Source: an uncultured marine group III euryarchaeote
GTDB taxonomy: Archaea > Thermoplasmatota > Poseidoniia > MGIII > CG-Epi1
Assembly (NCBI GenBank): GCA_902533295.1
Contig: CACALG010000001.1
Coordinates: 19,048 to 83,047, forward strand
Length of the DNA stretch: 64,000 nucleotides
Direction: 5' to 3'
The position numbers were made by a program, and so were the translations under genes. Below are positions 9,241-60,826 of the stretch, piece by piece; within the stretch, counting starts at the first letter, position 1; each line of letters begins with the position of its first letter. Under the pieces are notes generated by a model. It was not told the origin of the DNA, did no database searches, and saw only the letters and a list, made by a program, of their open reading frames with translations.

Positions 9241-10707
<1,467 letters not shown>

Positions 10708-13900: not shown

Positions 13901-16197
13901 TACAAAGATTCACCATATGATGAATCACTCCAAACTAAATGGAATTTTCCTTCATTATATAATATTTCAGGCATATAATTTAGGCCAGTTGTGTCTCCAC
14001 TTACCAGGATAGCATCATCCCATGAGCCACCACCATTAGTTGAACTGACTGTGTAAATATCATATGTATACGTATTTGTCCATGAAGCAACAATATTATT
14101 ATCATCATCTGATGTAATAGTTAAACCATATTTTACTCCCGTGTTTCCACTATCTATTTTTTCAGGTGATGTCCAATCTTTACCATTATTTGTTGATTTT
14201 GTGTAGTAAATTGAGGATACACCAGTATATCCGTTATAATCTGTCCACGCCACATGTACATCATCTCCAGATGCAGTGATATCGGCTCTATATTGTAATG
14301 TTGTTGAAGAATAATCTAAATCTGTAGCATGATCATCATCAAAATTAGAGAGAACACTAAGTTCTTCCCATGATTCTCCACCATCATCCGATCTTGTGAA
14401 ATATACATCACCATCTCTTGTAGACTGATCACAACCGTTTGTGTCATCTTCCTGATCTAAATCACCATTATCAAGATAAACAAGATACAAATAATCATTA
14501 GAGTAAGCGATACTTGGACTACCAGAGTCTGCCTCATAATAATGTTCGGAAATATCCTCTATATCAGACCATGTAGAACCATCATTACTACTAACAGAAT
14601 AAACTATATCTTGGTCGTTTGAAGCACCACTTCCATCATATTCATCTGACCAAACTACAAGAACTTCATCAGAATTTGCAGTGATAGTGGGTGATGCTCT
14701 AAACTCATTCACATCGCCATTACTAATTCCGTCAACATTAACTGGTGAATTCCATGAACTTCCTGAATTCGCACTCCGTACAGACATTATTTTACGTGGA
14801 GAATTAATATCGTCGATATCCATCCATGTCATATAGAAATTATTGCTCCCATCATTGTCAGATCCTAAAAATGAAAAACTGGATCCATCTGCTGCTTGAA
14901 TCACATTTTCAGAACCAAAACTTGTGCCAGAATTAGATGATGTTTTAGATTTTATTGCATAACCATCTCCTGTAAGTTCAAGCCATCCAATAATAACATT
15001 AGATCCTTGTGCAGAAATTGTTGTTTCAGTGACAGTCTCATCTGAACTTATAGTGCCTGGCGAGCCAAAAGTTTCGCCTCCATCTGTAGAACGTGCATAT
15101 TCTGCTGCATAGTAAGATTGAGATTCATAGTATTGTTCCCAGCTGATGTGTACATTGTTTCCGCTAAGGGCTATTTGAGCACCAATACTACTTGAACTAT
15201 CTGCATCTGAAATTAATATTTCATCGTCCCAAGATTGCCCTAAATCATCTGATTTTTGATAATAGATGTGGTATTCATCATTACTACTCTCTTTGAGAGC
15301 AGACCAAACAATATGAATGGTCCCATCACTACTTACAGCTCCATCGTAATCATAGATAATGTAATGCGAACTACCTGGTTCTATTTGCTGTCCAGTAGAC
15401 CATGTTTCTCCCTCATCATCACTATAGGAAGCTTCAATGACTTCACCACCTGTGTCTGATATCCAGGCAATAACGGCATGATCATCATTTGCATGAATGA
15501 GAACATCGCTAAGAATAGCGCTTGTTTCAGCTCCATTTGTAGCAATAAGTACTATATCATCCCAATTACCATCATAATATCTAAACTTAACAGAATCAAT
15601 AGTTGTATCTCTATCGGTCAAGTCTCCATCATCAATCCATGCTACATAGTAATCATCATCTAGCATAGATACTACTGGTGCACTCGAAGTAGAACCGCCA
15701 TTTGTGCCTATTGAGGCTTTATTATAGTCATTTAATTCACCAGATCCATAAGGTAAACCAGTTATTTTGATAGAGGCCTCATTGATTGTAGTATTCGTAG
15801 GAAGATATAGTGATACCTCTTCTTCACCACTGCCTGCAAACCTTGCGGATGCACCTTTAGCATTACTAGAAAATTTTTCCTGATAGCCTAAAGCCCCATA
15901 TCCAGTTCCATCATATTTCCATTCGTAATTTTTAACACCTAATGATAACCCTTCAGGATATGAACCATCACTATCAGGCATACCTGAAAGGCCAATATTA
16001 GCTTCTAAAACTTCTGTAGCAGGAAATTTAACAGAAACACTAGAATCCTCATTTTCACCATCTAAAGTAACTGTCTTTTCATCACTGCCATTACCTTCTT
16101 TGTAATAGGTTGTTGAGGTTTCCCCAAATACAGATGAAGTACTACTGAGCAAGAGAAGTGTCACGGCGAAAGCCACGACTTTGTTTTCAAACATCAT
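10990..16197 (-). CDS. giant secreted surface protein (1735 aa) with many BNR/Asp-box (SxDxGxTW) repeats, a C-terminal TM anchor and a proline-rich cytoplasmic tail
   Basis: Signal peptide; at least 12 Asp-box motifs (SDDEGETWS, SDDLGQSW, STDGGETF, SNDGSTW, SDDGGESW, STNNGKDW ...); TM IVLAGAGAVVLVGAGAGYFFY followed by 17-aa Pro-rich repeats. Confidence 0.6.
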   Translation of the reverse strand: MMFENKVVAFAVTLLLLSSTSSVFGETSTTYYKEGNGSDEKTVTLDGENEDSSVSVKFPATEVLEANIGLSGMPDSDGSYPEGLSLGVKNYEWKYDGTGYGALGYQEKFSSNAKGASARFAGSGEEEVSLYLPTNTTINEASIKITGLPYGSGELNDYNKASIGTNGGSTSSAPVVSMLDDDYYVAWIDDGDLTDRDTTIDSVKFRYYDGNWDDIVLIATNGAETSAILSDVLIHANDDHAVIAWISDTGGEVIEASYSDDEGETWSTGQQIEPGSSHYIIYDYDGAVSSDGTIHIVWSALKESSNDEYHIYYQKSDDLGQSWDDEILISDADSSSSIGAQIALSGNNVHISWEQYYESQSYYAAEYARSTDGGETFGSPGTISSDETVTETTISAQGSNVIIGWLELTGDGYAIKSKTSSNSGTSFGSENVIQAADGSSFSFLGSDNDGSNNFYMTWMDIDDINSPRKIMSVRSANSGSSWNSPVNVDGISNGDVNEFRASPTITANSDEVLVVWSDEYDGSGASNDQDIVYSVSSNDGSTWSDIEDISEHYYEADSGSPSIAYSNDYLYLVYLDNGDLDQEDDTNGCDQSTRDGDVYFTRSDDGGESWEELSVLSNFDDDHATDLDYSSTTLQYRADITASGDDVHVAWTDYNGYTGVSSIYYTKSTNNGKDWTSPEKIDSGNTGVKYGLTITSDDDNNIVASWTNTYTYDIYTVSSTNGGGSWDDAILVSGDTTGLNYMPEILYNEGKFHLVWSDSSYGESLYYTYSTDGSSWADLVYLNEGTTAYYSYTPVISAEGSKLYVAWVDSGDYDGDGSSDYDIVWAVSNDNGETWNDVTIAIDTDTSTTLALPSIASGSGFTYISYQYASGGSYDYYFAFTQDDGGSWSDSFEITDYDNEQLVAKYHRMDMVVGDKTYFAFTEETDISGGEDTDKNIYVRSTLSDDYPEDPYIKITNNNDWEWAGELNSENSPQTWGESGGIKSLKNALQEALQDAIDNGDTIVDEYGVEMTEIVMTVGSSSKGTVGFSELSIEYDAVIHVSTNGLVSALNAVIENSDDLEAEAILKLNSETPGRVKLTDLNILTTDADLSIDDLSFSGELVEGNDVIISAVISNDGEGDARVTVEFRNGGDLIATANIDGVTGGESKTVTTTWRDIPEGEHTITAEIVDSLPEDSSQGAEDSVSQSILVSSASPDITYNIEFGDMLVEGIANTWSLEIENDGEKYGEITTTLYWDDSDDEDNIITIEPQTKVDVDETKTFQGEITPTANVEKLYIMLEDSEEGVLFDEEVDIDIKKLPNLIVTQIVWEDENGNELVSFSDGSIAYAKIHVMNEGSFDVTANAEISLTKSGKDLQVNFAGIVDSYGSIELPANEETIITFNENYPSVSFLSGGNSDFTGFWTFELSIRDINAKNSGEQFWDSEELIFSDTNNRVEISTPPSLAITSLMAIPMNAGEGDEVTLKIFLANEGGASASGTLELLEFGSVVTLDDDTYPGNDGNFTIDGFGSLEVQIIHILPDPYDGELTLKVRINRDSVIPALGPQDALNDDSEIVKIAVSGTLKESEVTGGGSSESFNPIVLAGAGAVVLVGAGAGYFFYSRSKSSGDSLDAFGGELPEQPPAAPPITEQPPAAPPAPIPEQPPVPEPAAAPPAPVPEQPPVPEPAAAPPAPVPEQPPAPEPAAPPAPAPGGTVLNVAVPAGAQPGQQIQIKAPDGRVVTVAIPAGLQPGQQFQVKV
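11130..11335. repeat. tandem 51-bp repeat (~3.5 copies) encoding a 17-aa Pro-rich unit (PVPEQPPVPEPAAAPPA) in the cytoplasmic tail of the 1735-aa protein
   Basis: Direct repeats ctggaactggtgcaggaggtgctgctgcaggttcagggactggtggttgtt with period 51. Confidence 0.7.
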
Positions 16198-16248: not shown

Positions 16249-16986
16249 ATGACTGAACAATACCACATGAATTCCCATGAAGGCACATATACTAGGGAAT
16301 TTGAGGCTAAAGTAGAGGCTACATTCCCAGGCATCATCGAACTAGATAAGACTGCATTCTATCCATTGGGAGGGGGCCAACCCTCAGATATTGGAACAAT
16401 AACTTGGAATGAAGGAGATGCAAATGTTACTGATGTGAGGAAAAAAAATCGAATTAGGCACATTGTAGAAGGAGATTTACCAGAAGTTGGAGATTCCATA
16501 AAAGGTAATCTTGACTGGTCACGAAGATATTCACATATGAGAATGCATACTTCTCAACATTTAGTTTCTGCTGTAGTGAATGAAATATATGGTTCAGATA
16601 CCGTAGGAAATCAGATAGGAAATGAGAAGTCTAGAATAGATTTTAAGCCTTTAAAAATAAACCAAACTGAGCTTAATGAAGTAGAGGACAAAGTCAATGA
16701 TTACATATCTAAAGACTTGAAAGTTACTATATCTGAGGAATTACGGTCCAATTTAGAAAATAATCCAGATATCCGTTCAAGTATGTCTAGTGGTCTTTGG
16801 AAAATGTTACCGAAAAGTGTTACAGAATTAAGAGTAATAACCATAGGTGATATCGATGTTTGTCCATGCGCAGGCACTCATGTAAAAAGCTTAAAGGAAA
16901 TAGGTAATGTTTCTTTTATTAAAAGAGATAATAAGGGTTCTGAAAAATTAAGATTAACATATAATCTAGGCGATATCGACTCTTGA
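16249..16986 (+). CDS. alaX: alanyl-tRNA editing protein AlaX (AlaRS editing-domain homolog)
   Basis: Zn-binding HxxxH (HTSQH) and CxxxH (CAGTH) editing-domain motifs; 245 aa. Confidence 0.65.
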   Translation: MTEQYHMNSHEGTYTREFEAKVEATFPGIIELDKTAFYPLGGGQPSDIGTITWNEGDANVTDVRKKNRIRHIVEGDLPEVGDSIKGNLDWSRRYSHMRMHTSQHLVSAVVNEIYGSDTVGNQIGNEKSRIDFKPLKINQTELNEVEDKVNDYISKDLKVTISEELRSNLENNPDIRSSMSSGLWKMLPKSVTELRVITIGDIDVCPCAGTHVKSLKEIGNVSFIKRDNKGSEKLRLTYNLGDIDS

Positions 16987-19900
16987 ATTTGTAAGGCCCT
17001 CTCTGTCCTTTTGTTCATACATCATTTTAATTTCTACAGAAGTTGCAGCATTACTTTTTTGTTGCATTTTTAGTTTAAATTGTACTTCGTTATATGAAGA
17101 TATATCACCCACAATAAACGAGTTATCTGAGAATGAATAATATACATCTGGATCTATACCTACTAATCCTAAGATGCTACTATTGAATTCTGGACTTATT
17201 TTACAACTACTAATAGTTTCAGATGAATAATTACTGAGATTTACGTTCAAAGTTATATTTGTACCGAGTTTTTCGTATGATGATGTAATAACAATTTCTT
17301 TTTCAGTGAAGTAATTGTCAACCATTTCTCTTGTAGATGCAATTGTTTCATCAATTATTGGGTTCAGATAAATTTTTACCTGCTTTACACTCTCGGCATC
17401 TCCATTCCAATTTGCTAGGGTTGGATTAATTGTTTCTATAGCTCTAACGGCATTAATCAGCTTCCCTTTGAACATATTATCTATTTCTCCATAAATTACA
17501 GCAGCAAGATAGGAATGTTCTCCTCTCTGTAGAATGATTTTATTATTACCATAGTCTATGGAACCCAGATCTCCTTCAGTTTGAAATGAGTCTTGAACAA
17601 AATCATTGATTGCTGTGAGCATCCCGCTCATGATATCTGTATCAGTTTTAACTTCAACAGCACTAACATTTCTAAGAAGCCTTCCATCTTTGTAAATTAA
17701 ATATAATTCTTCAACTTTATACTTAGCAATAGGTTTTGATTCAATAATAGATACATTTTCATCTAATTCTTCTTTCCTAGATCGGTATAGTAAAACACCA
17801 CCAAACATTAAGAAAAGAAGACTTATACCTATAGTAGCAGGTAAAATTTCTTTCATTCCAAATTGATCAGTTTCTGTACCTGAGGAACTATATAATTTGA
17901 CTACTTCTTCCATACTTACTGTTTCATTATTAGAATTGCTAATGTGACCGAATTCATCTTCTATTGTGATTCTATAAAAATAATCTCTGTCTGGACTTGG
18001 ATTCTTATGAATCCATTCATAATAACCTTGTTTACAGGAAGTTTCCATACCAACTCCTATTATTTCTTGTGTGAACCATCCACTATCTGAAGCAGGTAAT
18101 TCATCAGCTACCATTTGTACTTTACAAATAGCGGCATCTTCAGGAATAACAAAACCTAAAACCAATTCTGTAGCATTAGTATGCGATATTGCAACATTTG
18201 TAGCTTTCTGAGGGTCCTCTGTAAATACTTCAAAAGTTAAATGAACTCCTGAATAATCAATTTTTATGTTGTTATTACCTGTAATATCCTCAGTTGGTAC
18301 AAAACCTCCATTTGAAGTTCCACCAAATTGAATAGTCTTATTGATTATATCTAAATAATATTCATCTACTAACAATTTATTTTTGTTCATTCCTCTAACT
18401 AATGCTTTTTCATATATTCCATCTAAATCATTATCTACACTAACATTAAACCAATGGATATCATTAATTGCTGGAATATATTTCAAATTGAAACTTTGAT
18501 CATATTGCCCATTGGAACTGAAATATTCAGTAGTATCTAGTGGATTCTCAAGATTGCCTGCAAGATCACGACTTTCAGCATACAGGAAATATCGTGTATT
18601 ATCTTGCAAGTCCTGTAATTTAATTTTATCATCAGAGATATCATGAGGTAATAAATACCAAGTTAATAGATCATTACCTTTCTCTATAGTCTGTATTGCA
18701 ATATATATCTTATAATCTAGATTTAGATTATCTGTATCTATGAAGATTTCTAGATAATCATATCCCCATTTTTGAGGTACATTTGAGAAAGAAATGGTAT
18801 CTACTTTCGATGCATAATTCATTATTATATCATATTCTTCTTTATCCTCACTATTTCCGGCATAATCACTAGCCAGAATTTTAAATGCATAATGACCTAA
18901 TTCATCAAATTCATAAATATAGTGCGTGTCTCCATAAATATTTATTGAATCCAGAGCTGTCCAAGTAACTGAATTAGGATCTAAATTAGCATTTGTAAAA
19001 TTAGAATAGGAAACCTCTAGAGTATTATACGCAATATCATCTGCACTATTCTTCCACGATAAATCTATTTGACTATTGCCTATGAAATAATAATCCTCTT
19101 CAAAATTCAAAAGTTCGGTGGAAGGTATGGATGTATCAATCTTAACTTGATACTCGTAATTATTCTTATTCTCTGTGTTTCCATAAATATCTCTAGCTAA
19201 TGATCTAAACCGATATTCCTTACCATCTTCGCCAGTAAACAATACAATTGATTCTGTAAACGTGCCATATTCTTCCCATTGGGCAAATTTATCATTTACT
19301 ATATACTCAATAATATATTCTTTGAAATCATTATCATCATTCAAAAGAGATATTTGTAACTCAATAGATTCTGAATTAATTAATCCAGTTCCGGGAATTA
19401 TCTCTGATTGTGGTGATGTTGTATCCAATAATGCTAAAAGTGTGTGATTATAGGATAAATTTTTGTATATTTCTACCATAATGTCATTATTATAATAAAT
19501 AATTCTTATGGGATTATAATTAATTTCATTTTGATCGGCAGCTTTGCTAATTACATTTATCATATAATAATCGGAAAAACCATAGTTATCAGTTTGTGAA
19601 TCAACCAGTTTACTTCCAAAAGAATTTTCGATATCAAAACCATGCTCTCTTGAACCAGTGCCCCGCTCATCAGCTATATTAATTTGCAAATTGTAGCGGA
19701 TCAAATAATCAGTATCACGACAATTAAAATCATTGTTTTGTAAAGTAGAATCACTGTCAATTAAGTCCAAACAAAAATCTCCTTCTGAGAATATATTATT
19801 ATCTATTGATATAGTACTATTAAATGAATAAATAGCTTTTTCAAAATCGTTAAAGACATTGTTTAAAATATTTATATCTGATCTATAAGAGCTTACTGAT

Positions 19901-22128
19901 TGTGTATTATTCGTTAATATATTATTTGAAATTCTTCCTTCACTATTATTTGCAGTTATAGCTATTTCCGAAAAATTAATAATATTGTCTTCTAAGTCAA
20001 AATCTGCAAGAACGACAGTTATAGATTCTCTAAAATTCGTTATTATATTATCACTAACTTCGACTTCACCTTCCTGCGAAAAAATACCTACTGCAGCAAC
20101 TTTTTGTAAATAAAGAACATCACATCTATCATGTGTGCATAATCCGGTTACATTATTATTAACTATTTTACTATATGTCCTGTTACTAAGAATACCATAA
20201 TCATTTACATGCAATATATTATCTTCAATAAGTATAGGAAACGTACTATCCTCAAATCCTCCTACTTCGATACCCACTGCCGAACTTAATGTATTATTTT
20301 TAATTATAGTTTTTGGAATATAATATGCATAAATTCCTGATAATTGTGATTCAGGACTCATGTTTGTTTGAACTGTATTATTTGCAATATATCCTTCTTC
20401 AACATCTCTGAACATTATGCCAGCACCATCGATAGAATGAACAAGATTATTTGTTACATGTATATTATCAATTGTAAATGCTGAACCAAACTGAGTATAT
20501 GCAGATATTCCATTATATTTTATATTTTTGAGTGTGTTATTAGCGACAATACCATTTGATATGTCGCCAAAACCATTATCATATATCCAAATTCCTATAG
20601 ACGCATTATCAATATAATTATCCACTATAGTAAAATTTTTGTAGAAATTCCAAACCGTTATTGCTCTTGCTGATGTATTAGTAATATAATTTGAAATTAT
20701 ATGATTATCAGTTCCTACATCATTATATACATTTTCAAAATCAAGCGCTATTGGAAAGTCATTATCATTGATGGTATTATTTATTATATAATTTCCAGAA
20801 GGTGATATACCTCCTTCAGGCCAACCCCAAAGTCCTATAGCTTGCCATCCTATTTCAAAATTATTATTTCTTATAGTATTATTGTTCTGAAATGAATTAA
20901 TAAAAATAGCAATTGTGTAATTTTCAAAGTAATTATTTTCGATTAAATGACCTCCACCATAATATTCATCTGTATCAAAATCCCAGAACCAGAAAATCAT
21001 ACAACTATGCCCCCAATAGGGTTGTTTAGACCCGCAATTTATGAATGTATTATTACTGTATTCATTTCTATTTCCTGCACGATCCATAAGATTGTGCCAA
21101 TATACGCCAGAAACATTGAATATGTTGCGGCTAATTATATTGTCATCTGTAGCTTGTAGAGACATATCATGTATTGTATTATTTAGAAATTGGTTATCAA
21201 TTATTGTATGATTACTGCCTTGAGTTATAGTAAGCGTACCTCTGCCTCCCTGTCCATTATCCTTGTAAATATAATCTCTAAAGATGTTACCACTAATTAG
21301 ATTATAATTCCCATAGGAAATAGTTACACCTAATGTACCGTTAATGAAAGTATTATTTTGTATTAAGGCGTTCTCTCCTGAGACAAACAAGTCATAGAAT
21401 ATGTAACTATTATAAATCGTGTTATTAATAAATCTAAAATTATCAGTATAAGCACTAATTATTCCAATCATATCAAATGTGGAATTAGTTATGTAAGATC
21501 CAGCTCCAGTAAATCTTAATGCCTTTACATACTCAAAATCAGAATTCTCAATAATTACCCTAGTATTAGGAATTCCTGAGCCTGGCTGATTATTTACTAA
21601 TCTGCCTACTTGAACAGTATAATCTAACCTCTCTGTGTAATTCCCTTTACCAATTATATTAGATTTAATAACGGAACGATCATTACTAGTTGTCGGATTC
21701 AAATCATAATCTGTAACAATTAGTACAGAATTCTCATTTAAATCAAGACAATTAGCAGTTATTTCACTATTCTTTTGAATAGAATCAAGTATTAATTCAG
21801 AATTAATTATGGTCAGTGTACTGTATAATGATATATTGTCACCATGTGAATCTTGTTCATGAAATACTGTAGAATTAATCCATCTGGTTTCTCCTCTAAT
21901 TTCAATGAAACCTTTTGATGATAGAGAAACGTTTTCAAGTTTCAAAGTCTTACCAAAATTAACGACAATATCTTTGACTGAGACGTCCTCATCCCAAACA
22001 TGCGTGTCTTGAGTGATAATCCAATCCTGACCCTCTTGGGGTGCATTTCCATTTGAACCTGCTGAAGCATTTCCAGTACTGATTACTATCGCAGTAATTG
22101 CGATTAAAAGAAATGCTGTTTTCTTCAT
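16966..22128 (-). CDS. giant secreted surface protein (1720 aa) with parallel beta-helix repeats, a C-terminal TM anchor and a cytoplasmic Roadblock/LC7-like domain
   Basis: Signal peptide; long run of N-rich beta-helix-like repeats (NNT..N..I); TM ILPATIGISLLFLMFGGVLLY near residue 1350; C-terminal ~130 aa homologous to ORF 1..477. Confidence 0.6.
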   Translation of the reverse strand: MKKTAFLLIAITAIVISTGNASAGSNGNAPQEGQDWIITQDTHVWDEDVSVKDIVVNFGKTLKLENVSLSSKGFIEIRGETRWINSTVFHEQDSHGDNISLYSTLTIINSELILDSIQKNSEITANCLDLNENSVLIVTDYDLNPTTSNDRSVIKSNIIGKGNYTERLDYTVQVGRLVNNQPGSGIPNTRVIIENSDFEYVKALRFTGAGSYITNSTFDMIGIISAYTDNFRFINNTIYNSYIFYDLFVSGENALIQNNTFINGTLGVTISYGNYNLISGNIFRDYIYKDNGQGGRGTLTITQGSNHTIIDNQFLNNTIHDMSLQATDDNIISRNIFNVSGVYWHNLMDRAGNRNEYSNNTFINCGSKQPYWGHSCMIFWFWDFDTDEYYGGGHLIENNYFENYTIAIFINSFQNNNTIRNNNFEIGWQAIGLWGWPEGGISPSGNYIINNTINDNDFPIALDFENVYNDVGTDNHIISNYITNTSARAITVWNFYKNFTIVDNYIDNASIGIWIYDNGFGDISNGIVANNTLKNIKYNGISAYTQFGSAFTIDNIHVTNNLVHSIDGAGIMFRDVEEGYIANNTVQTNMSPESQLSGIYAYYIPKTIIKNNTLSSAVGIEVGGFEDSTFPILIEDNILHVNDYGILSNRTYSKIVNNNVTGLCTHDRCDVLYLQKVAAVGIFSQEGEVEVSDNIITNFRESITVVLADFDLEDNIINFSEIAITANNSEGRISNNILTNNTQSVSSYRSDINILNNVFNDFEKAIYSFNSTISIDNNIFSEGDFCLDLIDSDSTLQNNDFNCRDTDYLIRYNLQINIADERGTGSREHGFDIENSFGSKLVDSQTDNYGFSDYYMINVISKAADQNEINYNPIRIIYYNNDIMVEIYKNLSYNHTLLALLDTTSPQSEIIPGTGLINSESIELQISLLNDDNDFKEYIIEYIVNDKFAQWEEYGTFTESIVLFTGEDGKEYRFRSLARDIYGNTENKNNYEYQVKIDTSIPSTELLNFEEDYYFIGNSQIDLSWKNSADDIAYNTLEVSYSNFTNANLDPNSVTWTALDSINIYGDTHYIYEFDELGHYAFKILASDYAGNSEDKEEYDIIMNYASKVDTISFSNVPQKWGYDYLEIFIDTDNLNLDYKIYIAIQTIEKGNDLLTWYLLPHDISDDKIKLQDLQDNTRYFLYAESRDLAGNLENPLDTTEYFSSNGQYDQSFNLKYIPAINDIHWFNVSVDNDLDGIYEKALVRGMNKNKLLVDEYYLDIINKTIQFGGTSNGGFVPTEDITGNNNIKIDYSGVHLTFEVFTEDPQKATNVAISHTNATELVLGFVIPEDAAICKVQMVADELPASDSGWFTQEIIGVGMETSCKQGYYEWIHKNPSPDRDYFYRITIEDEFGHISNSNNETVSMEEVVKLYSSSGTETDQFGMKEILPATIGISLLFLMFGGVLLYRSRKEELDENVSIIESKPIAKYKVEELYLIYKDGRLLRNVSAVEVKTDTDIMSGMLTAINDFVQDSFQTEGDLGSIDYGNNKIILQRGEHSYLAAVIYGEIDNMFKGKLINAVRAIETINPTLANWNGDAESVKQVKIYLNPIIDETIASTREMVDNYFTEKEIVITSSYEKLGTNITLNVNLSNYSSETISSCKISPEFNSSILGLVGIDPDVYYSFSDNSFIVGDISSYNEVQFKLKMQQKSNAATSVEIKMMYEQKDREGLTNSRVDIA

Positions 22129-53780: not shown

Positions 53781-54872
53781 ATGAGTGAAGAACTATTTGA
53801 ACATACAACGGGACAAGGAAAAGAAAATGAAGAATCAAAGCAGCAAATGGAAGCTGCTCAATTCTCAGAGAATTTATATGACAACAAAATAGACAAAAAT
53901 GCTATCTTACAAGCTATAGCATTATATCATGTTTATCAATCTACTGCTGAAGATGGAAATGTTGTTGCTTTGAGAGGATTAAATGTAACTGTTAAGAAAG
54001 GAGAAGCTGTAGCCATTGTTGGTCCTTCTGGTTCTGGTAAATCAACCTTATTGAAATGTCTTGGAGTTTTAATGAAGCCCTCAGCAGGAGGGGTTATCCT
54101 AAACGGAACGCCAACTACACGTAAGACTGGACTTGAACTAGTAAAAATGAGACAAGAAACAGTTTCATTTATTTTCCAAGAAGGGAATCTATTGCCTGAT
54201 CTAAATGCCCTCGATAACGTAGCTCAACCACTACGCCACAGAGATGTAAGCCCATATGAAGCAAAAGAAAAAGCACGTGAATTATTAATTGAATTAGGCT
54301 TAGAAGAAAGAATATATGGATTTCCTGAAACACTTTCAGGTGGTGAACAGCAAAGGGTCGCAATTGCACGGGCGTTAGTAACAAATCCAAAACTGATTCT
54401 AGCCGATGAACCTACGGGGGCACTAGATCCTATAACCAGTAGAGAAGTACTAGAATTATTTGGAAAATTACACAAGGAAAGAGGTGTAGCATTCTTAATT
54501 GTAACACATAGTGCAGAAGTAGCAGCTTTTTGTGATCGTAGCTTAGAATTACGTGATGGCAGATTTGTCGCCGAACATGGAACAAACTTAGAAATAGAAG
54601 ATTTAGAAGAATCTCGTGAACTAATAATTGATGATTTAGGAACATTATCATTTCCTCCTGAAGTATTGATGAGAATGGGTGGTTCTGGACGATTTGAAGT
54701 TGAGGAAGCTGCTGATGGAAAAATTACCTTGGTTGCTGCTGAGAGAAAAGAATCTATGATTAAAGGAAAGCAAAAACTGGCTGAGAAATGTCCTGCTTGT
54801 GAGTACAAATACAAGGACAATAGCCAAATGTGTCCTGAATGTGGTTCAAGCCGACCAATGATTAAATCATAA
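53781..54872 (+). CDS. ABC transporter ATP-binding protein with a C-terminal extension ending in a zinc ribbon
   Basis: Walker A GPSGSGKST, signature LSGGEQQRVA, Walker B LILADEPTGALD, H-loop VTHS; ~120-aa tail with CPACEYKYKDNSQMCPECG. ATG at 53781 directly follows the upstream stop (the ORF-track start at 53655 overlaps and is unlikely). Confidence 0.75.
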   Translation: MSEELFEHTTGQGKENEESKQQMEAAQFSENLYDNKIDKNAILQAIALYHVYQSTAEDGNVVALRGLNVTVKKGEAVAIVGPSGSGKSTLLKCLGVLMKPSAGGVILNGTPTTRKTGLELVKMRQETVSFIFQEGNLLPDLNALDNVAQPLRHRDVSPYEAKEKARELLIELGLEERIYGFPETLSGGEQQRVAIARALVTNPKLILADEPTGALDPITSREVLELFGKLHKERGVAFLIVTHSAEVAAFCDRSLELRDGRFVAEHGTNLEIEDLEESRELIIDDLGTLSFPPEVLMRMGGSGRFEVEEAADGKITLVAAERKESMIKGKQKLAEKCPACEYKYKDNSQMCPECGSSRPMIKS

Positions 54873-55425
54873 GTTTAATTCTAGGACTTTGACTATTTAC
54901 CTCAGGAATTTGATCTTTGCCTATAGGTTTCACAAATTTTTCGTACTCTTTTAAAAAATTAGATATATCTAAACCCATAAATTCATCCTGCCCAACTTGA
55001 GATAGAAGAGACATACCTGATTTTGATAGATTACGGGCACCTATCAAATCCTGAATTTGATAATTGGCCATTCTTATTTTTAGAAGTGCCGCACCACATT
55101 TAATTAGTCCTTGAAGAAAGCGATGCTCACTACTATTTCTTACAGCTGCAATCCATAGACCTTCCCATGCTTCATGGGCTTCCCAGTAATAGTGATAATT
55201 ATACAAATCAATTCCAAATAAATAATCTCCATTATCTTTCCACAAATCTGAATCCCATTTTTCATGGTCTTCATCATCATTTCCATAACTGTGACCCTCA
55301 GGACTATTCGTAGGATGTGGGTGCATACCGGGAACATATCGGTATGGTGGAAAATTCCTAGATGAATATCTTACCTTTCCAATATTCAATTCAGTTTCTG
55401 AATCTGCTAAAGGATAATCTGCCAT
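54862..55425 (-). CDS. DUF309-like protein
   Basis: Motif YLFGIDLYNYHYYWEAHEAWEGLW matches the DUF309 core (LFNxGxYWEAHExWE..W). Confidence 0.45.
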   Translation of the reverse strand: MADYPLADSETELNIGKVRYSSRNFPPYRYVPGMHPHPTNSPEGHSYGNDDEDHEKWDSDLWKDNGDYLFGIDLYNYHYYWEAHEAWEGLWIAAVRNSSEHRFLQGLIKCGAALLKIRMANYQIQDLIGARNLSKSGMSLLSQVGQDEFMGLDISNFLKEYEKFVKPIGKDQIPEVNSQSPRIKLMI

Positions 55426-56624
55426 TAGCTACTCAAAGTTTCTTCAATAGCATCTGTGAATTTTCTAATATCTGATTCATTATTGTAAAGATACGCACTA
55501 GCTCTTGCAGTACCTTCTATTCCTCGAGAATTAAACCAAGAATGAACACAATGCATACCACTTCTGATTGCAATGTTATATTTTTCATCTAAATGCATTG
55601 CTACTTCTGTTGGATCCCAACCTTCTATATTGAAAGAAAATATACCTCCTCGGTGAGAAACGTCTTCAGGACCTACTATAGATATTCCATCTAAATCCTT
55701 TAATTTATTTGACATTATAGTATTTAATTTGTTCTCATGTTCCCTAATATTGTCTCTTCCTACATTCATAACATAATCTGCTGCCACGCCTGAACCTATA
55801 GCCCCAGCATAATCCTGTAATCCTGCCTCAAAACATGAAGGAGGTGGTAACAACTTATAATCATCATAGGAAGTATTGACGACTGTGGAACCTCCAACAT
55901 ATGTTGGAATCAATTTCTCTAATTCTTCATATTTACCATACAAAGCACCCATACCACTAGGTCCACAAAATTTATGTGCACTGACTGCCGCAAAATCTAC
56001 ATCTAAATCAACTACATTAACTTCTTTGTGTGGTGCTGATTGTGCTGCATCCATCATAACTTTCACTCCCTTATCATGACATATTTCTATAATTTCTTTA
56101 GCAGGATTTGAGTGCCCATCCAAATTAGATGTATGGACAAAACTTACTAATTTTGTATCGGAAGTTATCCTATCTTTTAGTGCTTCTAAATTGAAATAAT
56201 AATTGTCTTTAGCCTCTAAAACTTCATATTTAATACCCTTATATTTTGCCAAATGATGCCATGGTACCACGTTAGCATTATGCTCTTTATCAGATGTTAG
56301 AACTTTATCTCCTTTTTTGAGATTTAAACCATTTGCCACAATATTCATACCTTCTGTAGCATTTTTTGTGAAAACTATTTCGGTTTGTTTTTCAGCCCCC
56401 ATAAAACGGCGAATTTGGTCTCTTGCAATTTCAAAATTTTCAGTAACCTGCCAACTTAACTTATGTACTGAACGACCTCCACATGCAGGATAATTTGTAT
56501 AATAATCCGTTAAAGCATCTATAACTGCCTGAGGTCTGAGAGTCATACAGGCACTATCTAGATAGATCGGATTATCGTCAGAATTTAACAATGGAAAATC
56601 CTTTCTAAATTTTGAAATGTCCAT
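55425..56624 (-). CDS. sufS: cysteine desulfurase (SufS/CsdA-like class V aminotransferase)
   Basis: PLP-lysine motif SAHKFCGPSGMGALY; catalytic Cys loop RSGMHCVHSW; 399 aa. Confidence 0.8.
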   Translation of the reverse strand: MDISKFRKDFPLLNSDDNPIYLDSACMTLRPQAVIDALTDYYTNYPACGGRSVHKLSWQVTENFEIARDQIRRFMGAEKQTEIVFTKNATEGMNIVANGLNLKKGDKVLTSDKEHNANVVPWHHLAKYKGIKYEVLEAKDNYYFNLEALKDRITSDTKLVSFVHTSNLDGHSNPAKEIIEICHDKGVKVMMDAAQSAPHKEVNVVDLDVDFAAVSAHKFCGPSGMGALYGKYEELEKLIPTYVGGSTVVNTSYDDYKLLPPPSCFEAGLQDYAGAIGSGVAADYVMNVGRDNIREHENKLNTIMSNKLKDLDGISIVGPEDVSHRGGIFSFNIEGWDPTEVAMHLDEKYNIAIRSGMHCVHSWFNSRGIEGTARASAYLYNNESDIRKFTDAIEETLSS

Positions 56625-56708: not shown

Positions 56709-57587
56709 ATGAGCTGTGTAGATGACTTATCCAAAATTGGCATGAACGATTTGAACTATACTTGTGCAACAGAAATAGCAAGTATGGGGCCTGTTGCAGC
56801 TTTACTTACTATACTCATTGGAATCCCTCTTGTAAGGCTGGTTTTGAGGTACCTAAAGAATATATTTGAGAAGTATGATTACATCGATGAAGGAATAGAA
56901 AATTTCCTTTTTAGAGCTACCAGCGTAGCTCTTTGGGCTGTTATTTTCTTGACAGCCGCAAATGAACTAGGAATAAATGTTACAGGAATTGTAGCAGCTC
57001 TTGGTATTGTTGGTTTAGCAATGGCTTTTGCAGCTCAAGATACTATAGAGAATATTATTGCAGGTATATTCCTAATGGTAGATAGACCATTCCGTGAAGG
57101 TGATCGAATATTATTACCGAAGAAAATTGGTAGTTTGTATTCAAGCTGGGGTGATGTAACTGAAGTTGGCCTTAGAACAACAAGAGTGCGCTCCACTGAT
57201 GGAGTTTTGCTTACAATACCAAACAAAAATTTGACAAAAGACACCATTGCTAATTTCAACCATAAAGATGACCGAAATCTCCGTGTAAGGATTAGATTAG
57301 GACTAGTGCCAACATGGGAAAATGTATCCAAAGGTGAAGAAATTGTAGAAAATATTGCTAAAAGTCATGAGGACATTTGCCAAGATAAACCAAAACCACC
57401 ACAGATAGTTTTGAGAGATTTTGGAGATCAAGAAGTAATCATGGAAATTAGATACTATGTCCCTAATGCACCTCTAATGAGAAGTACAAAATCATATTTT
57501 GTTAAAGAAATTCTAAAACAATTTGAAGAACAAGATGTTAGATTGGCATACCCAACTAGACTAATTATGAAGGAAGATATTGAATAA
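56709..57587 (+). CDS. mechanosensitive ion channel, MscS family
   Basis: TM3 Gly/Ala-rich helix (AALGIVGLAMAFAAQDTIENIIAGIFLM) followed by PFREGDRI motif and beta domain. Confidence 0.75.
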   Translation: MSCVDDLSKIGMNDLNYTCATEIASMGPVAALLTILIGIPLVRLVLRYLKNIFEKYDYIDEGIENFLFRATSVALWAVIFLTAANELGINVTGIVAALGIVGLAMAFAAQDTIENIIAGIFLMVDRPFREGDRILLPKKIGSLYSSWGDVTEVGLRTTRVRSTDGVLLTIPNKNLTKDTIANFNHKDDRNLRVRIRLGLVPTWENVSKGEEIVENIAKSHEDICQDKPKPPQIVLRDFGDQEVIMEIRYYVPNAPLMRSTKSYFVKEILKQFEEQDVRLAYPTRLIMKEDIE

Positions 57588-58631
57588 TTAAGGATTCAAA
57601 CCCTTTTCAAGTTCTTCTATTTCCTTACGCAGAGAATCTAAATCCTTATTGTCTTGCGTAGTTGTGGTAGGTGCTTCCGTTGTAGCTAACTGATGCTTAT
57701 ATGGATTGAACCAATTGACAAAATGATTTGCTGCCACTTTCAAAACAGTACTAACTTTGGCCATACCGCCATTGGTTTTAGATATATTGATATCACATGA
57801 CAGCACACCACAGTCAGCATTTGCATTATTAATTTCTGAATATGGGATAGTAACACCTGCACCACCACCGGCAAAAATTAGCCTATCCTGTAAAGCAGCC
57901 ATTGCATTTACAGGAATACCATCAATCTGTGTGTTAAGTTGTGCCTGGACAAGTGCATATACTGTATCCCCGGATTGCATCATACCTATAAGTGGAAAAA
58001 TCTGGGAATCATTATTAGTTACATAAAAACCATCTGGCAACTGTTTGAGCATTTCTCTAAAAAAGGCAAAATCGGCATTGTAAGGTACTCCTGAGATACC
58101 CTGAACCTGATTAGAAACTGGAGGTGTAACTGGAGGTGTAACTGGAGGTGCAGCTGGAGGTGTAGCTGGAGGTGTGCTAATATTAGCATCTTGATTTGTA
58201 GCTAACTGATGCTTATATGGATTGAACCAATTGACAAAATGATTTGCTGCCACTTTCAAAACAGTACTAACTTTGGCCATACCGCCATTAGTTTTAGATA
58301 TATTGATATCACAGGACATTACGCCACAGTCAGCATGTGCATTATTAATTTCTGAATAAGGGATAGTAACACCTGCACCACCACCGGCAAAAATTAGCCT
58401 GTCTTGTAAAGCAGCCATTGTATTTACAGGAATACCATCAATCTGTGTGTTAAGTTGTGCTGGCACTAGTGCATACACTGTGTCTCCAGGCTGCATCATA
58501 CTCATAAGTGGAAAAATCTGAGAATCATTAGTCGTTACATGAAAACCATCTGGCAACTGATTTAGCATTTGTCTAAAAAGAGCCAAATCAGCATTGTAAG
58601 GCACTCCTATTATATTACTCATAAATATCAA
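57588..58631 (-). CDS. hypothetical protein with two near-identical tandem ~150-aa domains of unknown function joined by a Pro/Thr linker; C-terminal coiled coil
   Basis: Domain copies (YNAD.A.FR.ML.QLPDGF.VT.NDSQIFPL...IFAGGGAGVTIPYSEINNA.ADCGV.SCDINISKTNGGMAKVSTVLKVAANHFVNWFNPYKHQLAT) separated by TPPATPPAAPPVTPPVTPPV; ends LRKEIEELEKGLNP. Confidence 0.5.
   Translation of the reverse strand: MIFMSNIIGVPYNADLALFRQMLNQLPDGFHVTTNDSQIFPLMSMMQPGDTVYALVPAQLNTQIDGIPVNTMAALQDRLIFAGGGAGVTIPYSEINNAHADCGVMSCDINISKTNGGMAKVSTVLKVAANHFVNWFNPYKHQLATNQDANISTPPATPPAAPPVTPPVTPPVSNQVQGISGVPYNADFAFFREMLKQLPDGFYVTNNDSQIFPLIGMMQSGDTVYALVQAQLNTQIDGIPVNAMAALQDRLIFAGGGAGVTIPYSEINNANADCGVLSCDINISKTNGGMAKVSTVLKVAANHFVNWFNPYKHQLATTEAPTTTTQDNKDLDSLRKEIEELEKGLNP
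57682..58610. repeat. ~420-bp direct tandem duplication (period ~516 bp, ~90% identical; copies at ~57682..58100 and ~58198..58610) inside CDS 57588..58631
   Basis: Both copies begin tgtagctaactgatgcttatatggattgaaccaattgacaaaatgatttgctgccactttcaaaacagtactaactttggccataccgccatt and stay collinear for ~420 nt. Confidence 0.75.
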
Positions 58632-58657
58632 AAGGTTAGCATATTATTTATTATTTA

Positions 58658-59113
58658 TTATTCATCTAGACTGGCTTCAAGTTCTTCGATTTCTTTCTGC
58701 AAACGCAACTTTTCGGCTGCTTTCACTTCTTCATCTTTTTTCATTAAGTATTCCTTTCTCTTTTGCAAAAGTTCTTCTCGTTCAGCTTGTTCTACTTTTG
58801 CCCTTTCCCGTTCTTGAGCTTCAGCGATAATTCTTGTTTCCTGAAACTGCCTTGCCATTTCCGCATGTGCCTCTAAATTCTCCTTATCCTGTATATTTTT
58901 AGCCCAAGCTACAAAAACCAACATTATTATGAAACTGATACAACAAATAACACTATCTTCCCCAAATTCTTCATCTTGCTTTTCACACTCTGGTGTCCAA
59001 TCAACGTCACAAGAATCATCAGGAGACTCTGAACCAAAAAAGAAAACACATGCGATGAGAAAAAATGTTATAGCAAGAAAATTCAACAGATTCTTCAAAA
59101 TTCCAGAAGCCAA
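58658..59113 (-). CDS. small membrane protein with Cys-rich extracytoplasmic loop and C-terminal coiled coil
   Basis: Two TM helices flanking a CDVDWTPECEK...VICC segment; Glu/Lys/Arg-rich coiled coil ending LQKEIEELEASLDE. Confidence 0.4.
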   Translation of the reverse strand: MASGILKNLLNFLAITFFLIACVFFFGSESPDDSCDVDWTPECEKQDEEFGEDSVICCISFIIMLVFVAWAKNIQDKENLEAHAEMARQFQETRIIAEAQERERAKVEQAEREELLQKRKEYLMKKDEEVKAAEKLRLQKEIEELEASLDE

Positions 59114-59161
59114 ATAATCACCCTATAACAACAAGAAAAACACTATTTAAAAAAATTTACC

Positions 59162-60100
59162 TTATTTAGAAAGCTTTTCCATCCTTTCTTCATATATCTT
59201 ATCATTAATCAATCCTTCAGCATGCAATTCTTTAAGTTGATCAATCTTAACTTGCAAAGAACCACTTGAAGCTTCTTTCTCAATATTTGATTTACTTACA
59301 ACACTATCTTTGATAATTGTGTCTCTGTCATCTACATAAGTTGTTGTTGTATCTCTATCATCTATATAATTTCCTTGAACAATTGTTGTAGGTGGTCCTG
59401 CACTCACTTGCATCTTACTCTTATTAACACGACGTATATCCTCTACCCTATCTAATTCTCTATACAAATCAAGTGCATGTTCATAATCTAATTGTCTCTC
59501 ATACTTCCTAGCTAATTCTAACTTCTTCGCTACCTTTCTATCTGCCTCCTCTCGCCTCTTTTTATCCTTTAATTCATTCTTAAGCTCAGCCTTCTTAGCT
59601 CTGAGTTTTTCCAATTCGGGATCAACAGATTTACTTGATGGTTCAACTTTTTCTCTAGGGTTGTTAAACTTTTGACTCGTATTTGGGATTTCATTTTTAA
59701 ATTCCTGATTAGTAGTGTCGTGAACATTTACAGGACACAGACCAAACAGAACTTGGGCATCTGTTTGCGATACAAAAGTAGAGGCTGCCATAAACTGATA
59801 TTTTTCTTGAGCATATCCATTGTCATAACTGAAATTAAAGAATTGCTTACCATTTCCAGTAATCCATTTTGTTCGCATTTTGATTAATTCAAAGGCCATT
59901 TGATTAGTGGCATCTCCACAGACCAAAAGTCTCGTATTAGTCAAAAAAATATTTGCCTTACTGTATATTGTATTTTTACCCAAATATGAATCTGTTGTAG
60001 TAATATTGTAAAATTTTTGAATTGTTACATTGGCTCCATTTCCTCCAGAAGACCAAACAATATGCTCATTAGCCTCAAGCAAAGGATTCGTATTAGGCAT
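59162..60100 (-). CDS. bacterial-PH-like (DUF304-type) domain protein with central coiled coil and C-terminal SHOCT domain
   Basis: N-terminal IVWSSGG...IFLTNTRLLV resembles bPH domains; charged coiled coil (LEKLRAKKAELKNELKDKKRREEADRK); C-terminal LKELHAEGLINDKIYEERMEKL matches the SHOCT pattern. Confidence 0.45.
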   Translation of the reverse strand: MPNTNPLLEANEHIVWSSGGNGANVTIQKFYNITTTDSYLGKNTIYSKANIFLTNTRLLVCGDATNQMAFELIKMRTKWITGNGKQFFNFSYDNGYAQEKYQFMAASTFVSQTDAQVLFGLCPVNVHDTTNQEFKNEIPNTSQKFNNPREKVEPSSKSVDPELEKLRAKKAELKNELKDKKRREEADRKVAKKLELARKYERQLDYEHALDLYRELDRVEDIRRVNKSKMQVSAGPPTTIVQGNYIDDRDTTTTYVDDRDTIIKDSVVSKSNIEKEASSGSLQVKIDQLKELHAEGLINDKIYEERMEKLSK

Positions 60101-60190: not shown

Positions 60191-60807
60191 ATGAGGAAAA
60201 AAATGTCATTTGAAGTACCTGATTTACCGTACGACTACAGCGCTCTTGAACCATACATAGATGAAGAAACTATGCGAATACATCATGACAAACATCATGC
60301 TGCATATGTTAACATGTTGAATGGTGCAGTTGAAGCTGCAGGAATAAAGGGAAAATCTGTAAAAGAATTAATCACAGACTTGGATTCTGTACCTGAAGCT
60401 CAAAGAGGAGCTGTTAGAAACCATGGTGGTGGGCACTTTAATCACTCACTATTTTGGGAAGTCATGGGTCCAGTTAATGGTGAAATGAGTTCCGATCTGA
60501 ACACAGCACTTTTGGAAGCATTTGGATCATTAGATGATTTTAAAGCTAAATTTCAGAACGCAGGAATGACACGCTTTGGCTCTGGATGGGCCTGGTTATG
60601 TTCAAATAATGGAAAATTGGAAATATGTTCTACTGCAAATCAAGATAATCCAATTATGGGTAACAAATACGGTGGAACTGATGGAGAGATACCAATCCTA
60701 GGAATTGATGTTTGGGAACATGCATATTATCTGAATTATCAAAATTTGAGGGCAGATTACATTTCAGCTTTCTTCAATGTTATTAATTGGGCTGAAGTCT
60801 CAAGGCG

Positions 60808-60826
<19 letters not shown>
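60191..60826 (+). CDS. sod: superoxide dismutase [Fe/Mn]
   Basis: Metal-ligand motifs HHDKHH and DVWEHAYY; 211 aa. Confidence 0.9.

What the first reader, a model, noticed from the sequence alone, without database searches (positions are those of the whole stretch)
57588..60100. Three-gene minus-strand operon of coiled-coil proteins: bPH+SHOCT protein, Cys-rich membrane protein, and a tandem-duplicated unknown domain, sharing a C-terminal KEIEELE motif
The gene at 59162..60100 combines a bacterial-PH-like domain, a long charged coiled coil and a C-terminal SHOCT-like helix pair. The gene at 58658..59113 is a 2-TM protein with a Cys-rich loop and a coiled coil. The gene at 57588..58631 has two almost identical ~150-aa domains of unrecognised fold (IFAGGGAGVTIPYSEINNA.ADCGV.SCDINISKTNGG...) and a coiled coil. 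The last two both end in ...KEIEELE(K/A)... just before the stop. A shared C-terminal heptad suggests a common docking partner or hetero-oligomerisation. None of the three has an assignable function. The set looks like a self-contained membrane-associated module.
Basis: partly seen in the sequence, partly recalled or inferred. Interest (0 to 1): 0.6.

Follow-up and report, generated by a model that had tools for sequence, protein, structure and literature searches.

The report
Strain-variable PH/SHOCT membrane module in archaea
Three small genes present in only some strains of a marine archaeon encode a hub protein, a membrane protein and a double-domain protein; the last two share an identical C-terminal helix that probably docks them to the hub, but what the assembly does is still unknown.

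Summary
Three co-oriented genes lie at the stated coordinates.

- **A:** PH-like domain, long helix and a SHOCT-type C-terminus.
- **B:** a 2-TM protein with an acidic, Cys-containing loop and a coiled coil.
- **C:** two copies of one domain, 90% identical.
- B and C both end in ...KEIEELE..L...

New findings:
- The host is a Marine Group III archaeon. The 2.6-kb module is absent from 22 of 22 informative related genomes, where MscS abuts SOD.
- A then B is conserved in every divergent locus with readable downstream sequence, at only 46-56% identity. C is optional and has one or two domains.
- The C-terminal motif occurs only on neighbours of A-type genes.
- A's C-terminal third (TPR-like hairpin, DDRDT/DSVVS segment, SHOCT) is the constant tail of a family of about 490 clusters with variable heads. 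B-type and C-type heads occur fused to that tail elsewhere.

Best reading: a split, accessory sub-membrane complex in which the motif docks B and C to A. The physiological role is unknown. Moderately interesting; a new variant of a known kind.

The parts
59162..60100 (-). Gene A (312 aa): hub protein with a PH-like head, long helix, TPR-like hairpin, DDRDT/DSVVS segment and SHOCT-type end
   Evidence: ORF. 47 homologues, 11 of them full length at 43-99% identity. Structure model.
59735..60067 (-). A residues about 12-122: PH-like (GRAM/GLUE-type) domain
59408..59548 (-). A residues 185-231: nearly invariant helical hairpin (ARKYERQLDYEhALDLYRELDRVEDIRRVNK), TPR-like
   Evidence: Invariant columns in alignment A1. 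Detected at 24.6 bits (E 1.4e-6) by a hairpin HMM built without A-family rows. The hairpin profile's best PDB hits are consensus TPR, PPR, alpha-SNAP and PP5-TPR.
59282..59389 (-). A residues about 238-273: TTIVqGNYIDDRDt..YvDDRDTIIKDSVVSKSNI segment, conserved across the tail family; structure unknown
   Evidence: Alignments. Model pLDDT below 50 here. No Pfam family.
59168..59263 (-). A residues 280-311: SHOCT-type helix-turn-helix
   Evidence: Helices at 280-294 and 300-311 with pLDDT 83-89. PF09851 hit in 8 of 11 family members, but not in the window copy itself.
58658..59113 (-). Gene B (151 aa): 2-TM hairpin membrane protein with a cytoplasmic coiled coil and the C-terminal motif
   Evidence: ORF. 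Hydropathy. Orthologues follow A in L038-L043, L001, L002 and L041.
58952..59032 (-). B residues 28-54: acidic (net charge -11), Cys-containing loop, predicted to lie outside the cell. The L001-type orthologue has a true LDL-receptor class A module here.
   Evidence: Pfam Ldl_recept_a at 32.3 bits against a cut-off of 24.1 in the L001 orthologue. Four Cys conserved.
58661..58708 (-). B residues 136-151: C-terminal motif LRLQKEIEELEASLDE
   Evidence: K140-E146 are invariant in all B orthologues although the rest is 32-49% identical.
57588..58631 (-). Gene C (344/347 aa): two PH-like domains, a Pro/Thr linker and the C-terminal motif
   Evidence: Single-domain 172-aa alleles exist (L005; P0205, P0206).
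58197..58607 (-). C repeat 1 (residues 9-145), PH-like
57681..58091 (-). C repeat 2 (residues 181-317), PH-like
57591..57632 (-). C residues 334-347: C-terminal motif LRKEIEELEKGLNP
56709..57587 (+). Left flank: MscS-type mechanosensitive channel gene. Its stop codon abuts C's stop codon.
   Evidence: Pfam MS_channel domains. Anchor gene of 24 syntenic loci.
60191..60826 (+). Right flank: Fe/Mn superoxide dismutase gene, divergent from A
   Evidence: Synteny analysis. Sod_Fe Pfam annotation on the L009 orthologue.

Best explanation
The module is an accessory cassette of about 2.6 kb, present in some strains only, between the core genes MscS and SOD of some Marine Group III archaea. It encodes a split version of a protein type that is otherwise single-chain.

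In the wider family (about 490 clusters at 50% identity), a variable head is fused to a constant tail. The tail consists of a TPR-like hairpin, a DDRDT/DSVVS segment and a SHOCT domain.

In this module only A, with a PH-like head, keeps the tail. B is a 2-TM membrane hairpin with an outward-facing acidic Cys loop and a cytoplasmic coiled coil. C has one or two PH-like domains. Both have the same short acidic amphipathic C-terminal helix (LRKEIEELExxL) in place of the tail.

Most likely, this helix docks B and C non-covalently to A, either on A's invariant hairpin or on its PH domain. Three heads would then share one tail in a complex just beneath the membrane. The tail would provide membrane or oligomer attachment, as proposed in the literature for SHOCT.

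**Shown**
- The gene content.
- The PH-like folds.
- The presence/absence polymorphism.
- The conserved A then B order.
- The restriction of the motif to neighbours of A.
- The natural head-tail fusions.

**Inferred**
- Physical docking.
- Which surface of A receives the motif.
- The membrane topology of B.
- The physiological role. My guess is membrane-proximal sensing or scaffolding of an outside cue, possibly cations, rather than catalysis, because no enzymatic domain is present.
For: 1. **Cassette.** In 22 of the 22 informative loci (24 MGIII syntenic loci fetched), MscS is followed by SOD after about 25-70 bp with no A, B or C. This includes L013 and L014, whose flanking genes are 95-98% identical to the window's. 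GC content matches the surroundings.
2. **Linkage.** A then B is found in L038, L039, L040, L043, L001, L002, L041 and L042 with A only 46-56% identical. C follows in L038, L039 and L043. L039 and L040 lie next to SOD, as in the window.
3. **Motif specificity.** Among 1,261 ORFs of at least 50 aa in the window plus 43 loci, the C-terminal motif is found only on genes next to an A-type gene: B-like, C-like and a DUF805 membrane protein in L001 and L041. It is absent from L044 and L045, which hold many tail-family genes but no A-type gene.
4. **Conservation.** The motif is the invariant part of B, and A's hairpin is nearly invariant.
5. **Natural fusions.**
   - The B-type head is fused to the tail in P0020 (pairwise E 5e-14), P0021 and P0165.
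   - The LDL-A-type B head is fused to the tail in P0143 (E 1e-29 against the L001 B orthologue).
   - The C-type head is fused to the tail in P0002, P0004, P0005, P0006 and P0060.
   - B is colinear with these fusions and stops where their hairpin begins.
6. **Tail family.** 491 representatives at E <= 1e-3. Nearly all match only the tail, with heads ranging from 0-4 TM segments to zinc ribbons and GRAM-like PH domains.
7. **Literature.** SHOCT-like domains have been proposed to anchor disparate domains to the inner leaflet of the membrane (PMC11237479).
Against: - No interaction was computed or measured.
- An HMM of the family hairpin does not recognise the B/C motif (2-3 bits, noise). The idea that the motif is a remnant of hairpin helix A therefore rests only on positional colinearity.
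- SHOCT did not oligomerise a test construct in the one published experiment (PMC3581485). Its membrane role is itself only a prediction.
- The C-domain model is low confidence (pLDDT 45).
- Operon status is unknown. T-runs and AT-rich boxes between the genes could mean separate transcripts.
- The motif DNA is unusually similar across lineages. Recent exchange of 3' ends, or codon bias, may inflate the apparent protein-level constraint.
Confidence: 0.45

Rival explanations
1. The module is an anti-virus defence or abortive-infection cassette. A would be a cytoplasmic sensor. B would be a small membrane effector that depolarises or permeabilises the membrane when triggered. C would be a modulator.
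For: - Presence/absence polymorphism at a fixed site between core genes.
- A different cargo gene at the same site in L019.
- Very fast divergence of A and B (46-48%) compared with the flanks (84-92%).
- A sensor paired with a small TM protein is a common defence-system layout (my own knowledge).
Against: - No PADLOC hit apart from one trivial 19-residue match.
- No nuclease, NTPase or other effector domain.
- No neighbouring defence genes.
- No relatives in viral contigs and none in PHROGs.
- dN/dS of 0.15 between the C repeats shows ordinary purifying selection.
Confidence: 0.15
2. The shared motif is a short zipper that pairs B with C (and with DUF805 proteins) directly. A would be an independent neighbour whose tail works only with other tail-family proteins.
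For: In B the motif continues a long coiled coil. It has hydrophobic residues at i, i+4, i+7 and i+11 (sequence). Identical motifs could self-associate.
Against: - L040 has A and B but no C, so B keeps an invariant motif without C.
- The motif never appears away from an A-type gene.
- Fusions link both head types to the tail, not to each other.
Confidence: 0.15
3. The module is part of a replacement-type flexible islet that varies an exposed envelope component (B's outer loop). This could serve, for example, to escape virus or grazer recognition. The cytoplasmic parts would serve only to position B.
For: B's loop is the most variable part of the protein, ranging from a minimal C-x7-C loop to an LDL-A module. 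Divergent versions sit at the same site. MscS 3'-end variants suggest recombination breakpoints in the flanks.
Against: - The loop is only 27 residues long.
- Most related genomes have nothing at this site rather than an alternative allele.
- A and C are cytoplasmic, well conserved in their own right, and belong to a family with many non-membrane heads.
Confidence: 0.1
4. There is no functional link. Three unrelated hypothetical genes share a low-complexity charged ending by chance.
For: Glu/Lys-rich helices are common, and the motif is short.
Against: - The 21-nt motif occurs twice in the window, against 0 expected in 100 shuffles.
- The motif is restricted to neighbours of A among 1,261 ORFs.
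- Gene order is conserved across lineages at 46-56% identity.
Confidence: 0.03

Closest known systems
SHOCT-domain proteins (Pfam PF09851; Eberhardt et al. 2013, PMC3581485), including bacterial PH + SHOCT architectures
   Same: A has a short C-terminal helix-turn-helix that follows a variable globular domain. PH + SHOCT combinations were already listed in 2013 (nine proteins with PF03703). The function is equally unknown.
   Different: Here SHOCT is only the end of a longer, highly conserved tail (TPR-like hairpin plus DDRDT/DSVVS segment) that Pfam does not model. The family is greatly expanded in marine archaea, and the window's own copy falls below the Pfam threshold.
SHOCT-like domains in the membrane-associated networks described around the PSP envelope-stress system (PMC11237479)
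   Same: The proposed role is the same: tethering disparate, mostly non-catalytic domains beneath the membrane. Both co-occur with small TM proteins.
   Different: No PspA/ESCRT-III, PspC, Toastrack or LiaF partner is present in this window or in the related loci examined. The paper regards archaeal SHOCT as occasional transfers from bacteria, whereas here it is a large archaeal family.
Bacterial PH domains (Pfam bPH_3 PF14470) and GRAM / Vps36-GLUE PH domains
   Same: Fold-level match for both A's head and C's repeat. The 'l.lTn.Rlif' strand motif is typical of GRAM and bPH_3.
   Different: - A's head has no Pfam hit.
- C's repeat is just under the bPH_3 cut-off.
- The two heads are not detectably related to each other (hhalign probability 0.25%).
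- No ligand can be inferred.
TPR domains that bind C-terminal peptides (Hop/PP5 with EEVD) and MIT domains that bind MIM helices (Vps4 with ESCRT-III); functional analogies from my own knowledge
   Same: In both, a helical hairpin or bundle receives a short acidic C-terminal helix or peptide that is shared by several different client proteins.
   Different: - A has a single hairpin, not a three-repeat TPR clamp or a three-helix MIT domain.
- The MIT match is sub-threshold (25 bits against 30) and is seen only in two paralogues.
- No binding has been shown.
LDL-receptor class A modules
   Same: The B orthologue in L001 and L041 and the fused paralogue P0143 have a genuine LDL-A match in the outer loop. 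It includes the acidic Ca2+-binding-type DxSDE signature.
   Different: The window's B has only a minimal acidic loop with two Cys, plus the conserved Cys pair at the start of the adjoining TM2, and no LDL-A hit.

Membership tests
PH-like fold superfamily (A head) | Seven-stranded antiparallel beta-sandwich capped by a C-terminal helix | tested here: met
Pfam bPH_3 (PF14470) (C repeat) | Score at or above the gathering threshold (23 bits) | tested here: inconclusive
SHOCT (PF09851) | C-terminal bi-helical motif of about 28 residues matching the Pfam model | tested here: inconclusive
   The window's A gives no hit at E <= 0.1. 8 of 11 orthologues hit (best E 4.6e-6), and tail-family members score 22-33 bits against a cut-off of 27. 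The predicted helix pair at 280-311 has pLDDT 83-89.
TPR-like repeat (A residues 185-231) | Helix A, turn, helix B with the TPR sequence signature | tested here: inconclusive
   The family hairpin profile hits consensus-TPR designs (summed E 3e-8, about 13 bits per repeat), PPR, alpha-SNAP and PP5. No Pfam TPR hit. The monomer model draws one continuous helix.
MIT domain (PF04212) | Three-helix bundle scoring above 30 bits | tested here: not met
   Only P0043 and P0044 give 25 bits, covering 24 residues of the hairpin. A itself gives no hit.
LDL-receptor class A (PF00057) (B loop) | Cys-rich module of about 37 residues with an acidic Ca2+ cage | tested here: not met
   No hit for the window's B. 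Met by the L001 orthologue (32.3 bits against 24.1).
Known anti-phage defence systems (PADLOC-DB 2.0) | Match to any component model | tested here: not met
   A and B have no hits. C has one 19-residue match at E 9e-4.
Operon (single transcript) | Co-transcription of A, B and C | not testable with these tools
   Only co-orientation, short spacers and conserved gene order are shown. There are T-runs and AT boxes in the spacers. The promoter tool does not cover archaeal promoters.
Mobile element or prophage remnant | Integrase or transposase, flanking repeats, or viral homologues | tested here: not met
   No direct repeat of 9 nt or more at the junctions. No PHROG hits. No viral-contig relatives. 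GC content equals that of the flanks.

The most novel reading that the evidence does not exclude
Poseidoniia archaea (Marine Groups II and III) may possess a previously unrecognised modular assembly system. Hundreds of paralogues would share a constant tail (TPR-like hairpin, DDRDT/DSVVS segment, SHOCT) and co-assemble beneath the membrane. The KEIEELE helix would act as a portable docking tag that lets tail-less proteins (membrane hairpins, DUF805 proteins, PH-domain proteins) plug into an A-type hub. This would be a cytoplasmic, cohesin-dockerin-like logic used for strain-specific sensing or virus defence.
Probability: 0.2. Interest if true: 0.65.

Novelty: new variant of a known kind. Interest (0 to 1): 0.4.

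Why it matters
SHOCT and prokaryotic PH domains are widespread, yet they have no established function.

This locus offers a compact, testable case:
- one hub protein;
- two or three kinds of client proteins;
- a 12-15 residue tag that can be deleted or transplanted;
- natural single-chain fusions as controls.

If docking is confirmed, it would give the first partner-level function for this tail. It would also explain a large expansion of paralogues in the abundant, uncultured marine Group II and III archaea.

The presence/absence polymorphism at a fixed core-genome site also makes the module a convenient marker for strain-level ecology. If docking is not confirmed, it remains an ordinary accessory cassette of hypothetical proteins.

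Tried and rejected
- **C repeat against A head.** The profile-profile comparison found no relationship (hhalign probability 0.25%). The two PH-like heads are therefore treated as independent.
- **Motif as a remnant of hairpin helix A.** A hairpin HMM built without A rows finds A's hairpin (24.6 bits) but scores the motif at noise level (2-3 bits). The idea is kept only as positional colinearity.
- **PDB sequence searches.** Searches with both head profiles found nothing meaningful.
- **Known families.** NCBIfam, PADLOC and PHROGs gave nothing usable.
- **Genome representatives.** A scan of the 185,579 GTDB species-representative genomes with the A profile found no relative.
- **Viral sequences.** A viral-contig scan with the A profile, a scan with the motif DNA, and a BFVD fold search found no close relatives.
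- **Junctions.** No target-site or att-like repeats were found.
- **MIT idea.** Sub-threshold, so not adopted.
- **L019 insert.** Its C-terminus looked SHOCT-like by eye, but Pfam gives no hit, so no claim is made.
- **Resource limits.**
  - The afdb50 fold library was unavailable.
  - The profile search of 1.84 billion proteins was dominated by the tail, because fused paralogues were in the query alignment. It was informative about the tail family but gave little extra depth for the C domain.
- **Context of a fused B paralogue.** The P0021 locus (L046) was uninformative.
Full report
**1. Observation**

- A: 59162..60100, 312 aa.
- B: 58658..59113, 151 aa, TTG start.
- C: 57588..58631, 347 aa from TTG, or 344 aa from the ATG at 58622.

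The spacers are 48 nt and 26-35 nt. C's stop codon abuts the stop codon of the convergent MscS gene.

C contains two copies of a roughly 140-residue domain, about 90% identical in protein and 92% in DNA. They are joined by a Pro/Thr linker encoded by a 12-nt tandem repeat. Between the copies dN/dS is 0.15 and dS is 0.28, so both are maintained by selection.

B and C end in ...KEIEELE..L... The 21-nt coding stretch occurs exactly twice in the window, against none expected. No RNA family maps to the region.

**2. Anatomy of A**

An AlphaFold model built on 11 orthologues shows four parts:
- a beta-sandwich with a terminal helix at residues 14-121 (pLDDT about 80);
- a disordered linker;
- a long helix at 161-232, followed by a low-confidence stretch at 233-279;
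- a confident helix pair at 280-311.

Pfam gives nothing for the window copy. However, 8 of 11 orthologues hit SHOCT.

The most conserved stretch of the family is ARKYERQLDYExALDLYRELDRVEDIRRVNK.

**3. Anatomy of B**

- Two hydrophobic segments, at residues 9-27 and 55-71, flank a 27-residue loop with net charge -11.
- Four Cys are conserved: two in the loop and a CC pair at the start of TM2.
- A charged helix of about 80 residues follows, ending in the motif.
- Across orthologues that are only 32-49% identical, the motif K140-E146 is invariant.
- In the L001-type orthologue the loop is a genuine LDL-receptor class A module (32.3 bits against a cut-off of 24.1).
- The N-in/C-in topology is inferred, not tested.

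**4. Anatomy of C**

The repeat is not an unknown fold.
- Pfam bPH_3 scores 21.5 bits against a cut-off of 23.
- 6 of 8 relatives hit bPH_3.
- The model has the expected order of strands followed by a C-terminal helix, although its pLDDT is only 45.

C's repeat is not detectably related to A's head. C has no long coiled coil, only the terminal motif after a Thr-rich linker.

**5. Host and genomic context**

The window carries an archaeal 16S gene. Twenty-four syntenic loci found through the neighbouring MscS gene come from Marine Group III / Poseidoniia genomes.

| Loci | What lies between MscS and SOD |
|---|---|
| 22 of 24 | About 25-70 bp; no A, B or C |
| L019 | A different 324-aa multi-TM gene |
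| L028 | Uninformative; the contig ends |

The empty sites include L013 and L014, whose SufS, EamA and GDH genes are 94-98% identical to the window's. The module is therefore a presence/absence polymorphism among close relatives.

There are no flanking repeats, no integrase, no GC anomaly and no viral relatives. MscS 3'-end variants differ between lineages. This hints that exchange happens by recombination in the flanking genes.

**6. Conservation elsewhere**

Short metagenome contigs show the following arrangements:

| Loci | Arrangement |
|---|---|
| L003, L004 | Window type: SOD-A-B-C-MscS |
| L009-L012 | Variant with A 90%, B 95%, C 97% identical |
| L038, L039, L043 | Divergent A-B-C (A 48-56%, B 43-46%); in L039 the flanks are EamA 85% and SOD 84% identical |
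| L040 | A-B with no C, between SOD and MscS |
| L001, L002, L041, L042 (GC 45%) | DUF805, A, then B with an LDL-A loop |

C alleles with a single domain (172 aa) occur on at least four contigs (L005). So A plus B is the conserved core. C is optional and varies in copy number. The module diverges much faster than its flanks.

**7. Motif specificity**

Among 1,261 ORFs in the window and 43 loci, a C-terminal [..]E[IL]..[LM]E ending is found only on genes adjacent to an A-type gene. These are the B-like genes, the C-like genes and the DUF805 protein, which ends KKELEEEIRRMEDELDT.

The motif is absent from L044 and L045, which carry up to seven tail-family genes but no A-type gene.

The coding DNA of the motif is strikingly similar across lineages. 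This could reflect codon bias or exchange of 3' ends.

**8. The tail family and natural fusions**

A profile search of 1.84 billion cluster representatives returned 491 proteins at E <= 1e-3. Nearly all match only the tail, which has three parts:
- a hairpin, ..E+E.xLDYxxAIxxYEElGxxxEAxRVRKL;
- the segment VDQTVVHGDYVDDRDTIVKDSVxxxSNxG;
- a SHOCT domain.

The heads of these proteins are hypervariable: 0-4 TM segments, zinc ribbons, GRAM-like PH domains. Such genes form arrays (L044; the P0004 contig).

The hairpin profile hits consensus TPR, PPR, alpha-SNAP and PP5-TPR in the PDB. A hairpin HMM built without A rows finds A's residues 185-231 at 24.6 bits.

Both tail-less head types of this module exist elsewhere fused to the tail:
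- C-type heads in P0002, P0004, P0005, P0006 and P0060.
- B-type heads in P0020 (E 5e-14), P0021 and P0165.
- The LDL-A-type B head in P0143 (E 1e-29).

B aligns colinearly with these fusions and ends where their hairpin starts.

**9. Mechanism**

By the Rosetta-stone argument (proteins found fused in some genomes tend to work together in others), the B and C heads work with the tail that A carries here. The shared tag, found only next to A-type genes, is the obvious candidate for the non-covalent link.

I therefore favour a split sub-membrane complex. B would sit in the membrane, C would contribute one or two further PH-like modules, and A would act as the hub whose tail provides membrane or oligomer attachment. 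The literature proposes such a role for SHOCT-like domains (PMC11237479). The only experiment on SHOCT found no oligomerisation (PMC3581485).

Docking, the receiving surface on A and the physiological role are all inferences. The hairpin HMM does not recognise the motif, so I do not claim the motif is a hairpin remnant.

The rival readings are:
- a defence or abortive-infection cassette;
- direct pairing of B with C, without A;
- variation of an exposed envelope component;
- chance.

They are weighed in the structured sections of this report.

**10. Comparison and novelty**

The parts are of known kinds: PH-like domains, SHOCT, a TPR-like hairpin and an LDL-A-like loop. PH + SHOCT architectures were already listed in 2013.

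What I could not find described in the two relevant papers, or in a full-text search, is:
- the extended constant tail and its large archaeal family;
- the A/B(/C) cassette and its presence/absence polymorphism at a fixed site;
- the neighbour-specific C-terminal tag.

I rate this a new variant of a known kind, of moderate interest.

Noticed in passing
window 10990-16197 (-) and 16966-22128 (-): Two giant ORFs of 1735 and 1720 aa, with BNR_2 + CARDB and Beta_helix/NosD + Cohesin domains respectively. They are probably surface proteins. The second lies in the lowest-GC stretch of the window (0.29-0.30).
   Followed up: partly
window 9240-10707 (-): A complete archaeal 16S rRNA gene with no 23S rRNA anywhere in the 64-kb window, so the rRNA genes are unlinked. 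There is a single tRNA at 4529-4602.
   Followed up: no
L019 1776-2750 (-): In one MGIII genome the same MscS|SOD gap holds a different 324-aa multi-TM gene. The site therefore looks like a small hotspot for accessory genes. Its C-terminus resembles SHOCT by eye, but Pfam does not confirm this.
   Followed up: partly
L041 2786-5299; L044 4216-7272; L045 763-4802: In contigs with GC 45-48%, arrays of tail-family genes sit in a conserved neighbourhood. It includes a 165-aa + 335-aa gene pair with no Pfam hits, a 101-aa TM protein, a zinc-ribbon/TSP3/TM protein and a DUF805-like protein. The short 'DSVV(S/N)' motif of the tail recurs in the zinc-ribbon protein (GGISDSVVNIKND) and the DUF805-like protein (IGDTIQDSVVSGYK). 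This suggests a second shared linear motif.
   Followed up: partly
window 57540-57590 compared with L013 10820-10890: The last residues of MscS differ between lineages (...LIMKEDIE* against ...LIMKDTEQTWKI*). The difference does not follow overall similarity. This is consistent with recombination breakpoints at the edge of the variable site.
   Followed up: no
window 57606-57626 and 58676-58696; L001 7225-7242; L038 1551-1568 and others: The DNA encoding the motif (GAAATAGAAGAACTTGAA) is identical or nearly so between genes and lineages whose remaining sequence is only about 40% identical in protein, including the GC-45% loci. Possible causes are codon bias, gene conversion or a nucleotide-level constraint.
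   Followed up: partly
window 54862-55425 (-) and 55425-56624 (-): A DUF309 protein gene lies immediately downstream of a SufS-like aminotransferase (cysteine desulfurase-type) gene, and the two overlap by one base. The pair is conserved in 21 of the 24 MGIII loci.
   Followed up: no
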